From an uncultured Candidatus Saccharibacteria bacterium (GTDB lineage Bacteria; Patescibacteriota; SICC01): a stretch of DNA of 64,000 bases. The notes beneath the pieces were generated by a model. The model worked only from the letters and a program-made list of their open reading frames with translations, was not told the DNA's origin and ran no database searches. The stretch is from the NCBI GenBank assembly GCA_964525455.1, contig CAZGHP010000001.1, positions 74,739 to 138,738 on the forward strand. Direction: 5' to 3'. Below are positions 16,391-17,152 of the stretch, in pieces. The position numbers and the translations under genes were made by a program. Each line of letters begins with the position of its first letter. Position 1 is the first letter of the stretch.

Positions 16391-17152
16391 ATGCCGAATA
16401 CAAAAATCCAAAAGTTTAGACGTCTCAACCTCATAGCGGCTGCCCTGCACGCAATCCAGGGGATTGTCATTCTTCTTTTGGCGACTGATTTTAAGTTGCC
16501 GCTCAATCTCAATTTTCTGCAATTCAACACGACTACCCAGTCGCTTGAACCGGCTGCCCGCACGATTGTCGATGTTCCGTTGGCCTGGCTGGTGATCGCG
16601 TTCCTGCTCACGTCGGCGCTGGCCCACCTGATTATCGCCACGACCGGCCGTGCCCGATATGAACGCGACCTCGCCAAAGGCATCAACCGGTTCCGGTGGG
16701 TCGAGTATGCCGTTTCCGCTAGCACGATGATGGTGGCGATCGCGATGCTGGTCGGTATTTACGACCTGGCGACGTTGACCGTTCTTTTCATCGTGACGGC
16801 GGTAATGAACCTGATGGGCCTGACGATGGAAGTACTCAACCAAACCACCCAGAGGACCAACTGGTTGCCCTTCTGGATCGGCTGCCTGGCCGGAATCGCA
16901 CCTTGGGTCGCGGTCGCGCTCTACCTCGGGTCTGGTGCAGCCTACGGCTCGGCCGCACCGACGTTCGTCTACGGCATCTTCTTCAGCATGTTCCTGTTCT
17001 TCAACTGCTTCGCGATCAACATGCTGCTGCAGTACAAGAAGGCGGGGAAGTGGGCAGACTACCTTTATGGTGAGCGCGTCTACATCCTGCTCAGCCTGTT
17101 CGCCAAATCAGCCTTGGCCTGGCAGGTATTCGCGGGGACGCTCCGACCGTAA
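16391..17152 (+). CDS. heliorhodopsin (7-TM retinal protein with inverted topology)
   Basis: Strong similarity in conserved blocks to heliorhodopsin 48C12: FRWVEY, LPFWIGC(L/I)AGI(A/V)PW, FVYGI..S.FLFFN.FA, KWxxYLxGERxYIxLSLxAKSALAWQ (retinal Lys in AKSALAWQ); TATAGT box 8 nt upstream of ATG. Confidence 0.85.
   Translation: MPNTKIQKFRRLNLIAAALHAIQGIVILLLATDFKLPLNLNFLQFNTTTQSLEPAARTIVDVPLAWLVIAFLLTSALAHLIIATTGRARYERDLAKGINRFRWVEYAVSASTMMVAIAMLVGIYDLATLTVLFIVTAVMNLMGLTMEVLNQTTQRTNWLPFWIGCLAGIAPWVAVALYLGSGAAYGSAAPTFVYGIFFSMFLFFNCFAINMLLQYKKAGKWADYLYGERVYILLSLFAKSALAWQVFAGTLRP

What the first reader, a model, noticed from the sequence alone, without database searches (positions are those of the whole stretch)
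16391..17152. Heliorhodopsin gene embedded in the low-GC island
The 253-aa protein aligns block by block with heliorhodopsin 48C12 (FRWVEY, LPFW(I/F)GC(L/I)AGI, FVYGI..S.FLFFN.FA, KW..YL.GER.YI.LSL.AKSALAWQ), including the retinal-binding Lys.

It lies between two copies of the island repeat and has an intermediate GC (about 55%), which suggests acquisition as a cassette. No retinal-biosynthesis genes (blh/crt) are in the window.
Basis: partly seen in the sequence, partly recalled or inferred. Interest (0 to 1): 0.6.

Follow-up and report, generated by a model that had tools for sequence, protein, structure and literature searches.

The report
Heliorhodopsin gene on a swappable cassette
The gene is a genuine, intact heliorhodopsin (a light-sensing membrane protein) in a high-GC Patescibacteria (CPR) bacterium, which is an ordinary find for that group; less ordinary is that it sits as a one-gene unit in a strain-variable row of gene cassettes anchored to a tRNA-Gln gene.

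Summary
Window 16391-17152 (+) encodes a 253-aa heliorhodopsin (HeR).

- **Family match:** Pfam PF18761 E=7e-97, and the NCBIfam HeR equivalog at 324 bits against a cutoff of 100.
- **Solved structures:** 54% identical to TaHeR and 46% to 48C12. An AF2 model (pLDDT 91.6) superposes on 6is6 at TM 0.94.
- **Key residues:** H20, H79, E105, S235 and K239 (48C12 numbering H23, H80, E107, S237, K241) are all present.
- **Selection:** dN/dS against three close homologues is 0.05-0.07.
- **Host:** a ~64% GC Patescibacterium. HeRs are already known to be common in this group, which also lacks retinal synthesis. No crt/blh gene is in the window.

The cassette reading is also supported.

- The low-GC island starts exactly at the 3' end of tRNA-Gln(CUG) at position 12065.
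- It consists of four units, each closed by a ~25-nt GG..CC.A.CCCGA....GAGC(C)A site.
- A conspecific contig with 98.3% identical flanks carries different cassettes at the same site. Its HeR allele is only 91% identical at DNA level (dS 0.26, against 0.01-0.09 for flanking genes).
- A third contig has the same module-HeR-module unit between other genes.

No recombinase was found, so the mobilising mechanism is inferred, not shown. The HeR itself is a new member of a known kind. The array is the more interesting part.

The parts
11993..12065 (+). tRNA-Gln(CUG). The island begins immediately after its 3' end (...GGAGCA).
   Evidence: ARAGORN and Rfam tRNA at 65.6 bits. Homology with the conspecific contig L045 stops exactly at 12065.
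12066..15638 (+). Cassette 1, GC 44%. Contains a Z1/ResIII helicase-type protein (12132-13988), a 144-aa ORF (13981-14415) and a type II DNA methyltransferase (14412-15602). It is closed by the core site at 15614-15638.
   Evidence: Pfam, PADLOC Helicase_II and MTase_II, GC, core sites.
15639..16205 (+). Cassette 2: a 172-aa predicted membrane protein of unknown family (15638-16156; its ATG shares the A of the preceding ...GAGCCA). It is closed by the core site at 16181-16205.
   Evidence: ORF, no Pfam or PADLOC hit, core sites.
16176..16355 (+). Repeat module copy 1: core 1 (16181-16205) + ATAGGGA..GAACC + CTCAAC box + core 2 (CACCAACCCGAG) + CTCAAC box + core 3 (GGTTCCCAACCCGA).
   Evidence: nhmmer E=6.8e-51; alignments A1 and A2.
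16206..17202 (+). The HeR cassette as a unit (997 bp): module remainder, promoter-like site, HeR ORF, 25-nt trailer and closing core 17178-17202.
   Evidence: The same unit is 85.9% identical in L044 (window 16185-17351). In L045 it is 91.1% identical over window 16180-17124; beyond that point the two sequences no longer align. In both contigs it lies between different neighbours.
16353..16382 (+). Promoter-like site TTCACT-18 nt-TATAGT. The -10 hexamer ends 8 nt before the ATG, which implies a leaderless or near-leaderless mRNA.
   Evidence: Consensus scan, a single hit that is not above chance on its own. A TATAGT or TAGACT hexamer sits 8-9 nt from the ATG in 8 HeR loci. Many host genes show the same geometry.
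16391..17152 (+). Heliorhodopsin gene, 253 aa. H20, H79, E105, S235 and K239 correspond to 48C12 H23, H80, E107, S237 and K241.
   Evidence: dN/dS 0.05-0.07.
17173..17355 (+). Repeat module copy 2. Its core 1 (17178-17202) closes the HeR cassette, and the rest leads into cassette 4.
   Evidence: nhmmer E=1e-51.
17203..20602 (+). Cassette 4, GC 54%. Contains DUF305 (17455-18069), a P1B heavy-metal ATPase with an HMBD domain (18122-20191) and a 66-aa membrane ORF (20264-20464).
   Evidence: Pfam, GC.
20544..20602 (+). Terminal site of the array: CTCAACGGTCTTG box (20558-20571) plus core GGTACCCAACCCGAGAGCTGAGCA (20579-20602). Host DNA resumes after it.
   Evidence: Homology with L045 resumes at 20578.

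Best explanation
Window 16391-17152 encodes a functional heliorhodopsin. It is a seven-helix membrane protein with its N-terminus in the cytoplasm, and it binds all-trans retinal through a Schiff base at K239, with E105 as counterion.

By analogy with characterised HeRs it most likely acts as a slow-cycling light sensor or light-dependent regulator of other proteins, not as an ion pump. The host is a high-GC Patescibacterium with no retinal pathway in view, so the chromophore is probably scavenged from other organisms.

The gene is carried as a self-contained ~1-kb unit with its own promoter-like element, ORF and closing repeat. That unit is the third in a row of four that begins at the 3' end of tRNA-Gln(CUG).

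The units are delimited by ~25-nt sites. In a related genome the equivalent position is occupied by the real 3' end of a tRNA-Gln gene. I infer that units are inserted, lost and exchanged by site-specific recombination at these pseudo-tRNA-end sites, catalysed by an enzyme encoded elsewhere.

**Shown:** family membership, key residues, fold, purifying selection, position in the array, and strain-to-strain variability of the array.

**Inferred:** retinal scavenging, a sensory rather than transport role, leaderless expression, and the recombination mechanism.
For: **HeR identity**
- Pfam E=7e-97 and the NCBIfam equivalog.
- 54.5% identity to TaHeR and 45.9% to 48C12.
- AF2 model pLDDT 91.6 with 7 long helices plus the ECL1 beta-hairpin. 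Foldseek TM 0.94 and rmsd 1.3 A to 6is6; type-1 rhodopsins reach only TM ~0.6-0.7.
- The SLFAK motif fits the SxxxK motif used to recognise CPR HeRs (PMC9166423).
- K+R count is 14 in the predicted cytoplasmic loops against about 2 outside.

**Functional gene**
- Intact in four lineages with dN/dS 0.05-0.07.
- 78 columns are invariant across 30 homologues, including H20, H79, E105, S235 and K239.

**Host and retinal**
- MetRS best named hits are Patescibacteria. The nearest HeRs are from Patescibacteria/Saccharimonadia MAGs.
- No crt/blh in the window.
- Rhodopsin-encoding Saccharibacteria lack blh, and HeR takes up external retinal rapidly (PMC9296517).

**Cassette**
- The island abuts tRNA-Gln.
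- Core sites lie 10-60 nt after stop codons, all on the gene strand: 4 in the window, 7 in L044, 2 in L045, 2 in L176 and 1 in L179.
- L045 has 98.3% identical flanks but different cassettes.
- HeR dS is 0.26, against 0.014-0.089 for eight flanking genes.
- L044 carries the same module-HeR-module unit between an aldo-keto reductase and MazE/Fic.
- In L104 the core-1 position of the module is the true 3' end of tRNA-Gln(UUG).
- In L179 a HeR-containing accessory region starts right after tRNA-Gln(UUG).

**Sensory role**
- Published HeR partners are glutamine synthetase (PMC9529153), photolyase (PMC9769723) and an ABC transporter (PMC11109279).
Against: - No recombinase is present in the window or in any related array. 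The only trace is a C-terminal fragment of a large serine recombinase in L044.
- The similarity of the core sites to the tRNA-Gln(CUG) 3' half is not significant by shuffling for three of four sites. The tRNA link therefore rests on position (L104, one L044 copy, and the array starts).
- Only two array variants of the same species were recovered. No excised circle or empty site was seen.
- The promoter-like site is a single consensus hit, no more frequent than chance.
- Nothing here tests retinal binding, the photocycle or the absence of ion transport.
- In sister lineages HeR is followed by a 147-154-aa membrane protein that is absent from the window. A needed partner could therefore be missing or encoded elsewhere.
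Confidence: 0.8

Rival explanations
1. HeR is an old, vertically inherited resident of this lineage that merely lies in a recombination-prone accessory region. On this view the repeats are regulatory or RNA elements (3'/5' UTR structures or a tRNA-linked small RNA). Differences between strains would come from homologous recombination and deletion, not from site-specific cassette movement.
For: - HeR divergence tracks housekeeping divergence: genome GCA_034375485.1 has HeR at 73% and MetRS at 68% identity to the window.
- Relatives L176, L177 and L179 keep HeR among a recurring pool of accessory genes (2'-5' RNA ligase, OsmC + methyltransferase, PMSR, BipA), mostly without cores next to HeR.
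- The module shows some conserved pairing: 92.6% of cells paired and covariation 0.205 against 0.163 in shuffles, reached by 4 of 500 shuffles.
- No recombinase was found.
Against: - Breakpoints between window, L045 and L044 fall at the core sites or at the tRNA 3' end.
- The conserved blocks in the module are at most ~14 nt, which is short for homologous exchange.
- The HeR allele is 3-10 times more diverged at silent sites than the flanks in the same species.
- The cores are absent from the 55 kb of host DNA in the window.
- No Rfam family matches.
Confidence: 0.2
2. The protein is a light-driven or light-gated ion transporter (as reported for one viral HeR) rather than a sensor.
For: Proton transport has been reported for the viral heliorhodopsin V2HeR3 (abstract of PMC12873467, seen). 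Nothing in the sequence analysis excludes transport.
Against: The protein is a close relative (54% and 46% identity, same E/H/H/S/K set) of TaHeR and 48C12. From my own knowledge, these two were characterised as non-transporting.
Confidence: 0.07
3. HeR works together with the neighbouring copper-type efflux cassette (DUF305 + P1B ATPase), modulating metal export by light in the way another HeR modulates an ABC transporter.
For: The two lie adjacent on the same strand, at 16391-17152 and 17455-20191. There is a precedent for HeR regulating a transporter (PMC11109279).
Against: - The adjacency is not conserved. In L044 the downstream neighbour is MazE/Fic, in L045 it is the host flank, and in other relatives it is other genes.
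- A full repeat module and a separate -10-like element lie between the two units.
Confidence: 0.05
4. The gene is an unexpressed or chromophore-less relic carried along in the island.
For: No retinal pathway is in the window. The array also contains clearly foreign DNA (cassette 1 at GC 44%).
Against: dN/dS is 0.05-0.07. All key residues are conserved. A -10-like element sits at conserved spacing. HeRs in blh-less organisms bind external retinal (PMC9296517).
Confidence: 0.03

Closest known systems
TaHeR, heliorhodopsin of a Thermoplasmatales archaeon (PDB 6is6, 7u55)
   Same: 54% identical over 244 aligned residues. Predicted fold matches at TM 0.94 and rmsd 1.3 A. It has the same Schiff-base Lys, Glu counterion, two His residues and the Ser of the SxxxK motif.
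   Different: The host here is bacterial (CPR). The TM5-TM6 loop is four residues longer. Photochemistry is untested.
48C12, the founding heliorhodopsin (PDB 6su3, 6uh3)
   Same: 46% identical. H23/H80/E107/S237/K241 correspond to H20/H79/E105/S235/K239.
   Different: More distant than TaHeR, with two small indels in ECL1 and near TM2.
Heliorhodopsins of Patescibacteria/Saccharimonadia (Chiriac et al. 2022, PMC9166423; Bulzu et al. 2021, PMC8612252)
   Same: Same family and same host group. The nearest homologues are 88% (Baikal-deep-G193 MAG) and 74% (a Saccharimonadia MAG) identical. There is no retinal pathway in the window, which fits what Jaffe et al. report for rhodopsin-encoding Saccharibacteria (PMC9296517).
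   Different: In 8-9 of 33 related loci HeR sits in a conserved housekeeping neighbourhood (MsrA upstream). Here it is a single-gene unit in a repeat-delimited array. The motif is SLFAK, whereas the commonest reported are SLVAK, SLIAK and SFVAK.
tRNA-anchored additive genomic islands built by tycheposons (Hackl et al., bioRxiv 10.1101/2020.12.28.424599)
   Same: The island abuts the 3' end of a tRNA gene. Its units are separated by att-like repeats. Content varies between near-identical strains. The paper notes that most islands of that kind hold no integrase-bearing element at a given time.
   Different: The units here are 0.6-3.6 kb, often one gene, with no integrase or replication module in any of six arrays seen. 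A 170-nt three-core module recurs, and the separators are only loosely tRNA-like.
Integron cassette arrays
   Same: A row of mostly co-oriented small cassettes, each ending in a repeat. Array content varies between strains. The long repeat has imperfect internal complementarity.
   Different: No IntI gene next to the array. No RYYYAAC...GTTRRRY pair in the expected orientation (read directly). At least the HeR and DUF305 units carry their own -10-like elements. The insertion point is a tRNA gene.

Membership tests
Heliorhodopsin (Pfam PF18761 / NCBIfam NF038020) | Full-length match to the family models above the curated cutoffs | tested here: met
   PF18761 at 324 bits (cutoff 26.7), covering profile positions 2-242 of 242. 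NF038020 at 324.6 bits (cutoff 100).
Heliorhodopsin (Pfam PF18761 / NCBIfam NF038020) | Retinal Schiff-base lysine on TM7 within an SxxxK motif | tested here: met
   K239 aligns with 48C12 K241, and S235-L-F-A-K239 gives the motif. The lysine is invariant in 30 homologues. Motif definition from PMC9166423.
Heliorhodopsin (Pfam PF18761 / NCBIfam NF038020) | Single Glu counterion on TM3 and the two His residues near the Schiff base (48C12 E107, H23, H80) | tested here: met
   E105, H20 and H79 align with them and are invariant in 30 homologues. The roles of these residues are from my own knowledge of the 48C12 and TaHeR structures.
Heliorhodopsin (Pfam PF18761 / NCBIfam NF038020) | Seven-helix rhodopsin fold with the long ECL1 beta-hairpin | tested here: met
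   AF2 model at pLDDT 91.6, with helices at 4-30, 64-83, 100-120, 126-149, 159-185, 191-215 and 224-251 and strands at 35-46 and 51-63. The top 10 Foldseek PDB hits are all HeRs, with query-normalised TM 0.87-0.94.
Heliorhodopsin (Pfam PF18761 / NCBIfam NF038020) | Inverted topology (N-terminus cytoplasmic) | tested here: met
   By the positive-inside rule, the N-terminus and alternate loops hold 14 K+R against about 2 on the other side. This is a prediction, not an experiment.
Heliorhodopsin (Pfam PF18761 / NCBIfam NF038020) | Binds all-trans retinal, has a slow photocycle and shows no ion transport | not testable with these tools
   Needs expression with retinal, spectroscopy and transport assays.
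Integron | intI tyrosine recombinase gene adjacent to the array (attI) | tested here: not met
   No recombinase family appears in the ORFs scanned across the 64-kb window. The genes beside the array are a HAD hydrolase plus tRNA-Gln on one side and 121-aa and 183-aa unknowns plus Cmk on the other.
Integron | attC sites with paired core sites RYYYAAC ... GTTRRRY downstream of each ORF | tested here: not met
   The sequences of the repeats were read directly. GTTGGGT occurs only on the opposite strand of core 1, and no matching RYYYAAC partner was found.
Integron | Array of small, mostly co-oriented cassettes that varies between strains | tested here: met
   Window compared with L045 and L044.
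tRNA-anchored island of tandem integrative elements (tycheposon-like) | Island starts at the 3' end of an intact tRNA gene | tested here: met
   tRNA-Gln(CUG) in the window and L045. tRNA-Gln(UUG) in L179 and L104.
tRNA-anchored island of tandem integrative elements (tycheposon-like) | Units separated by partial copies of the target tRNA | tested here: inconclusive
   **For:** one L044 copy carries 20 nt identical to a tRNA-Gln(UUG) 3' end, and in L104 the true tRNA occupies the core-1 position. **Against:** the window cores resemble the tRNA 3' half only weakly, with shuffles reaching the observed score 35 to 799 times out of 2000.
tRNA-anchored island of tandem integrative elements (tycheposon-like) | Elements carry an integrase, with or without a replication module | tested here: not met
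   None in the window, L045, L176, L177 or L179. Only a 154-aa Zn_ribbon_recom fragment in L044.

The most novel reading that the evidence does not exclude
The HeR gene would be cargo of a previously undescribed gene-capture system in high-GC Patescibacteria.

- The system is an integron-like array with no integrase of its own. The insertion point is the 3' end of a tRNA-Gln gene, and each cassette ends in a pseudo-tRNA-end site.
- A 170-nt three-core module would act as a landing pad or folded recombination site. It is found downstream of a real tRNA-Gln(UUG) gene in one related contig.
- A recombinase encoded elsewhere in these tiny genomes would shuffle single genes among strains. The cargo seen includes photoreceptor, metal efflux, restriction-modification, toxin-antitoxin and stress enzymes.
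Probability: 0.3. Interest if true: 0.65.

Novelty: new member of a known kind. Interest (0 to 1): 0.4.

Why it matters
The heliorhodopsin itself adds little. HeRs are already documented in about a hundred CPR genomes, and their lack of retinal synthesis is known.

Two points may be useful.

1. **A constraint on HeR function.** Here HeR travels as a one-gene unit with its own expression signal and stays under strong purifying selection in at least three different neighbourhoods. Its function in this lineage therefore cannot depend on a co-transferred partner. That narrows the search for what HeRs do to core-genome partners or autonomous action. It also makes this allele a convenient minimal test case.

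2. **A possible route of gene flow in CPR bacteria.** The array shows how episymbiotic bacteria with ~1-Mb genomes may exchange accessory genes at a tRNA gene without a resident integrase. Mobile-element biology in this group is little studied. If the core sites prove to be recombination sites, that would be a new variant of cassette capture.

Tried and rejected
- **Rfam:** a scan of 11500-21500 at E<=1 found only the tRNA, so the repeat is not a described RNA family.
- **Integron reading:** rejected. There is no IntI and no canonical attC core sites.
- **Genome-wide REP/MITE reading:** rejected. The cores are confined to the island within the 64 kb, and all copies share the orientation of the genes.
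- **Permuted tmRNA or tRNA-like gene:** ARAGORN reports none there.
- **Metagenome pattern scan:** the scan for the module returned 120 stretches, almost all chance matches. nhmmer kept only L104 and L134.
- **IMG/VR scans:** three scans, for the module, the core and the tRNA-Gln 3' end. They gave chance hits in coding DNA or phage tRNA genes, and no attP or integrase.
- **Core versus tRNA-Gln(CUG) 3' half:** shuffle tests were mostly not significant. The tRNA link is therefore argued from position only.
- **Further array variants:** exact-protein look-ups of the flanking HAD, Cmk and 121-aa proteins found only the two known variants.
- **Link to the copper-type cassette:** the neighbours are not conserved.
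- **154-aa membrane protein:** this protein follows HeR in sister lineages, but a search found it absent from the window, L044 and L045, and it has no Pfam family.
- **Module as RNA:** RNAalifold and pair counts are suggestive at best with eight copies.
- **Organism name:** the genome-contig scan did not return the window's own genome, so the organism is named only to the level of Patescibacteria.
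Full report
**1. The observation**

The ORF at 16391-17152 (+) is real and intact. It is 253 aa from the ATG. A TTG nine bases upstream would give 256 aa, but it lies inside the -10-like hexamer.

- It matches Pfam Heliorhodopsin PF18761 end to end (E=7e-97).
- It matches the NCBIfam equivalog model 'heliorhodopsin HeR' at 324.6 bits against a cutoff of 100.
- Every significant match among solved structures is a heliorhodopsin. The best is the Thermoplasmatales archaeon protein TaHeR (6is6, E=1.2e-78), followed by 48C12 (E=4.6e-60).
- Counted from the printed alignments, identity is 54.5% to TaHeR and 45.9% to 48C12.

**2. Defining residues, topology and fold**

The 48C12 chain numbering in the alignment equals native numbering, because E107 and K241 fall where expected. 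The query residues therefore correspond as follows:

| Query | 48C12 |
|---|---|
| H20 | H23 |
| H79 | H80 |
| E105 | E107 |
| S235 | S237 |
| K239 | K241 |

- The TM7 motif is SLFAK, an instance of the SxxxK motif used to recognise HeRs in CPR genomes (PMC9166423).
- These five residues are invariant in an alignment of 30 homologues.
- Hydropathy gives seven hydrophobic spans. The N-terminus and alternate loops hold 14 Lys+Arg against about 2 on the other side, as expected for the inverted HeR topology.
- An AlphaFold2 model built on the 30-sequence alignment has mean pLDDT 91.6. It shows seven long helices plus the two-stranded sheet in the first extracellular loop.
- Its ten best Foldseek matches in the PDB are all heliorhodopsins (query-normalised TM 0.87-0.94, rmsd 1.3 A to 6is6). 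Type-1 rhodopsins follow at TM about 0.6-0.7.

**3. Is the gene in use?**

The gene is intact in the window, in two close relatives (L045, L044) and in a Lake Baikal Patescibacteria MAG (L004). Pairwise dN/dS is 0.05-0.07, which indicates strong purifying selection.

A promoter-like site TTCACT-18-TATAGT ends 8 nt before the ATG. On its own this is no more than chance. However, a TATAGT or TAGACT hexamer sits 8-9 nt upstream of the HeR start in all eight loci compared. Many host genes in the window also have a TAnnnT hexamer 7-9 nt before the start and no Shine-Dalgarno sequence. I infer leaderless or near-leaderless expression from the cassette's own promoter.

**4. The host**

The window outside the island is 63-64% GC.

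- Its methionyl-tRNA synthetase has as best named relatives 'Patescibacteria group bacterium' proteins at 66-69% identity. More distant hits spread over many CPR groups.
- The closest HeRs are also from Patescibacteria: 88% in MAG Baikal-deep-G193, 74% in a Saccharimonadia MAG, and then dozens of Saccharimonadia/Saccharibacteria MAGs.
- One genome, GCA_034375485.1, holds both a MetRS 68% identical and a HeR 73% identical to the window's proteins. It has the same RsmI-MetRS-MFS gene order.

The HeR has therefore been in this lineage for a long time and was not imported from another phylum.

The window ORFs selected by frame-specific GC, including every one longer than 115 aa, were scanned with Pfam or carried precomputed Pfam labels. 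None matched a carotenoid, blh or retinal family, and none matched a recombinase family. A few short or doubtful ORFs were not scanned.

This fits the literature. HeRs were reported about 98 times in 86 CPR genomes, mostly Saccharimonadia (PMC9166423). Rhodopsin-bearing Saccharibacteria lack blh and are thought to obtain retinal from hosts or the environment. HeR is noted to bind external retinal rapidly (PMC9296517).

**5. The island**

The low-GC stretch begins at 12066, the base after the ...GGAGCA 3' end of tRNA-Gln(CUG). It ends at 20602. It divides into four units, each closed by a ~25-nt site of the form GG(C/T)(A/T)CC.A.CCCGA....GAGC(C)A lying shortly after a stop codon. The sites end at 15638, 16205, 17202 and 20602.

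| Unit | Content | GC | Evidence |
|---|---|---|---|
| 1 | Restriction-modification-like set | 44% | PADLOC Helicase_II + MTase_II, |
| 2 | 172-aa membrane protein | 51% | |
| 3 | HeR | 55% | |
| 4 | DUF305 + P1B ATPase with a heavy-metal-binding domain + small membrane ORF | 54% | |

Units 3 and 4 begin with the rest of a ~170-nt module. Counting the closing core of the unit before it, the module has three core-like sites and two CTCAACGG boxes (16176-16355 and 17173-17355).

**6. Comparative evidence for cassette behaviour**

- **Contig L045 (ENA ERZ27297438).** It is 98.3% identical to the window over 5.7 kb to the left of the island and 2.1 kb to the right.
  - Between the same tRNA-Gln and the same 121-aa gene it carries a ceramidase, a MauJ-like gene, two unknowns, a 2'-5' RNA ligase-like gene and, last, HeR.
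  - Its HeR cassette is only 91.1% identical to the window's. Silent-site divergence of the HeR ORF is 0.26, against 0.014-0.089 for eight flanking host genes.
  - The HeR alleles of these two conspecific strains therefore did not simply descend with the chromosome.
- **Contig L044.** It has the same module-HeR-module unit (85.9% identical across window 16185-17351). There it lies between an aldo-keto reductase and a MazE/Fic pair, in an array of at least six units that ends next to bipA.
- **More distant relatives (L176, L177, L179).** They keep HeR among a recurring pool of small accessory genes, with a few of the same core sites. In L179 the region starts directly after tRNA-Gln(UUG).

**7. 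What the repeats are**

In metagenome contig L104 the whole module lies downstream of a genuine tRNA-Gln(UUG) gene. The tRNA's own 3' end (...TCCCCGAGCCA) occupies the core-1 position. No cassette follows the module there; the next gene, on the opposite strand, converges on it.

One L044 copy has 20 nt identical to that tRNA end in the same position. Differences between variants begin exactly at the tRNA 3' end on the left and at the last core on the right.

The simplest reading is that the cores are attachment-type sites derived from, or mimicking, the 3' end of tRNA-Gln. Units would then be inserted, excised and swapped there. Excision between cores in different registers of an empty module would explain why some units carry the module remainder at their 5' end and others do not. 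This last step is my inference.

The published model closest to this is the tRNA-anchored additive island built by tycheposons in Prochlorococcus. There, incoming elements push older ones away from the tRNA, partial tRNAs separate units, and most islands hold no integrase at a given time (bioRxiv 10.1101/2020.12.28.424599).

**8. Weaknesses of that reading**

- No recombinase is encoded in the window or in any of the arrays. The only trace is a 154-aa C-terminal fragment of a large serine recombinase in L044.
- The window's cores resemble the tRNA-Gln(CUG) 3' half only weakly. Shuffled sequences reach the observed alignment score in 35 to 799 of 2000 trials.
- The arrays fail the integron definition: no IntI and no RYYYAAC/GTTRRRY pair.
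- The module has a nearly invariant long-range complementarity (GGGA.GG...GAACC with GGTTCCCAACCC) and two inner hairpins with a few double changes.
  - 92.6% of cells are paired. Covariation is 0.205 against 0.163 in shuffles, reached in 4 of 500.
  - With eight related copies, and a structure derived from them, this does not distinguish a folded recombination site from an RNA element or chance.
- It matches no Rfam family.
- Scans of viral contigs found no element carrying the site.

**9. How the HeR most likely works**

*Shown:* it has every sequence and fold feature of a retinal-binding heliorhodopsin and is under selection.

*Inferred from characterised relatives:* light isomerises retinal bound at K239. 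The Schiff-base proton moves to the E105/His region without net transport. A long-lived intermediate then changes the interaction with another protein.

Documented HeR partners are glutamine synthetase (PMC9529153), photolyase (PMC9769723) and an ABC exporter (PMC11109279). A role in photo-oxidative stress responses has been proposed for monoderms and CPR (PMC8612252, PMC9166423).

In the window lineage the gene moves alone, so any partner must be a core-genome protein. The neighbouring copper-type cassette is not a conserved neighbour.

In sister lineages two associations recur that are absent here. A 147-154-aa four-span membrane protein overlaps or follows the HeR stop codon (L004, L179) or lies within 6 kb (L176, L177, L005). 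MsrA lies directly upstream in 8 of 33 Saccharimonadia loci.

**10. Verdict**

The finding is correct as written and its interpretation is supported. A heliorhodopsin in a Patescibacterium without retinal genes is already known biology, so the protein is a new member of a known kind.

What deserves follow-up is the context. It is a repeat-delimited, strain-variable cassette array with no integrase of its own, anchored at tRNA-Gln in very small genomes, with HeR as one of its single-gene cargos.

Noticed in passing
window 11993-20602; also L044 8400-16491, L045 5679-10826, L179 131-494, L104 4521-4746: A tRNA-Gln-anchored array of cassettes. Each cassette is closed by a ~25-nt GG..CC.A.CCCGA....GAGC(C)A site, and a ~170-nt three-core module recurs between units. 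In L104 the module directly follows a genuine tRNA-Gln(UUG). No recombinase was found in any array.
   Followed up: yes
window 12066-15638: The tRNA-proximal cassette has the lowest GC (44%). It encodes a Z1/ResIII helicase-type protein, a 144-aa unknown and a type II DNA methyltransferase (PADLOC Helicase_II + MTase_II). It looks like a recently acquired restriction-modification or defence unit.
   Followed up: partly
window 17455-20464: DUF305 protein, a P1B ATPase with an N-terminal HMBD domain and a 66-aa membrane ORF. The ATPase has CPC, YN(x)4P and MxxSS motifs, which by my reading mark the Cu(I)-exporting type. Together they look like a metal-resistance cassette. The long ORF from 17966 overlaps DUF305; gene callers start the ATPase at 18122 or later.
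   Followed up: partly
window, many gene starts (e.g. 7034, 10187, 20693, 49909, 21629, 54660): Host genes commonly have a TAnnnT hexamer 7-9 nt upstream of the start codon and no Shine-Dalgarno sequence. This suggests widespread leaderless mRNAs in this Patescibacterium. The HeR and DUF305 cassettes share the pattern, but the restriction-modification cassette does not.
   Followed up: partly
L004 1532-1996; L179 4391-4834; L176 14802-15245; L177 8196-8639; L005 16196-16642: A 147-154-aa predicted four-span membrane protein with no Pfam family. It overlaps or immediately follows the HeR stop codon in two sister lineages and lies within 6 kb in three more. It is absent from the window, L044 and L045. 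It is a candidate HeR partner.
   Followed up: partly
L045 9174-9785, L176 9515-9964, L177 2876-3358 (and L179 505-1005): A 2'-5' RNA ligase-superfamily gene lies immediately upstream of HeR in three related contigs and about 2.6 kb upstream in a fourth. MsrA (PMSR) lies directly upstream of HeR in 8 of 33 Saccharimonadia loci and within about 6 kb downstream of it in L176, L177 and L179.
   Followed up: partly
A2 columns 62-79 with 191-203 (window 16209-16225 with 16333-16345): The module has a nearly invariant long-range complementarity (GGGA.GG...GAACC with GGTTCCCAACCC) enclosing two small hairpins that show a few compensatory changes. The evidence is inconclusive with eight copies.
   Followed up: partly
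L044 1995-2459 (-): A 154-aa ORF that is only the zinc-ribbon/C-terminal part of a large serine recombinase. It sits beside a UvrD-like helicase and a type III-like methylase/helicase pair. It is a decayed integrative element at the edge of that contig's array.
   Followed up: partly
window 1492-2131 versus L192 291-885: A second small strain-variable spot. About 0.6 kb between otherwise 97-98% identical flanks is replaced, giving a 93-aa ORF in the window and a 117-aa ORF in the other strain. No core repeats are present and it is not next to a tRNA.
   Followed up: partly
window 24858-28375 (-), 58683-60614 (+), 28001-29600: Phosphoketolase next to acetate kinase, which suggests fermentative metabolism. 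The alanyl-tRNA synthetase is only 643 aa. There is a GC dip to 57% around 28001-29000; an ORF at 28534-29571, which mostly lies just after the dip, has no Pfam match.
   Followed up: no
window 61173-64000: An FtsA/MreB-like ATPase (423 aa) is followed by a protein of at least 517 aa, truncated at the window end, with a weak Baseplate_J-like match (E=3.5e-5).
   Followed up: no
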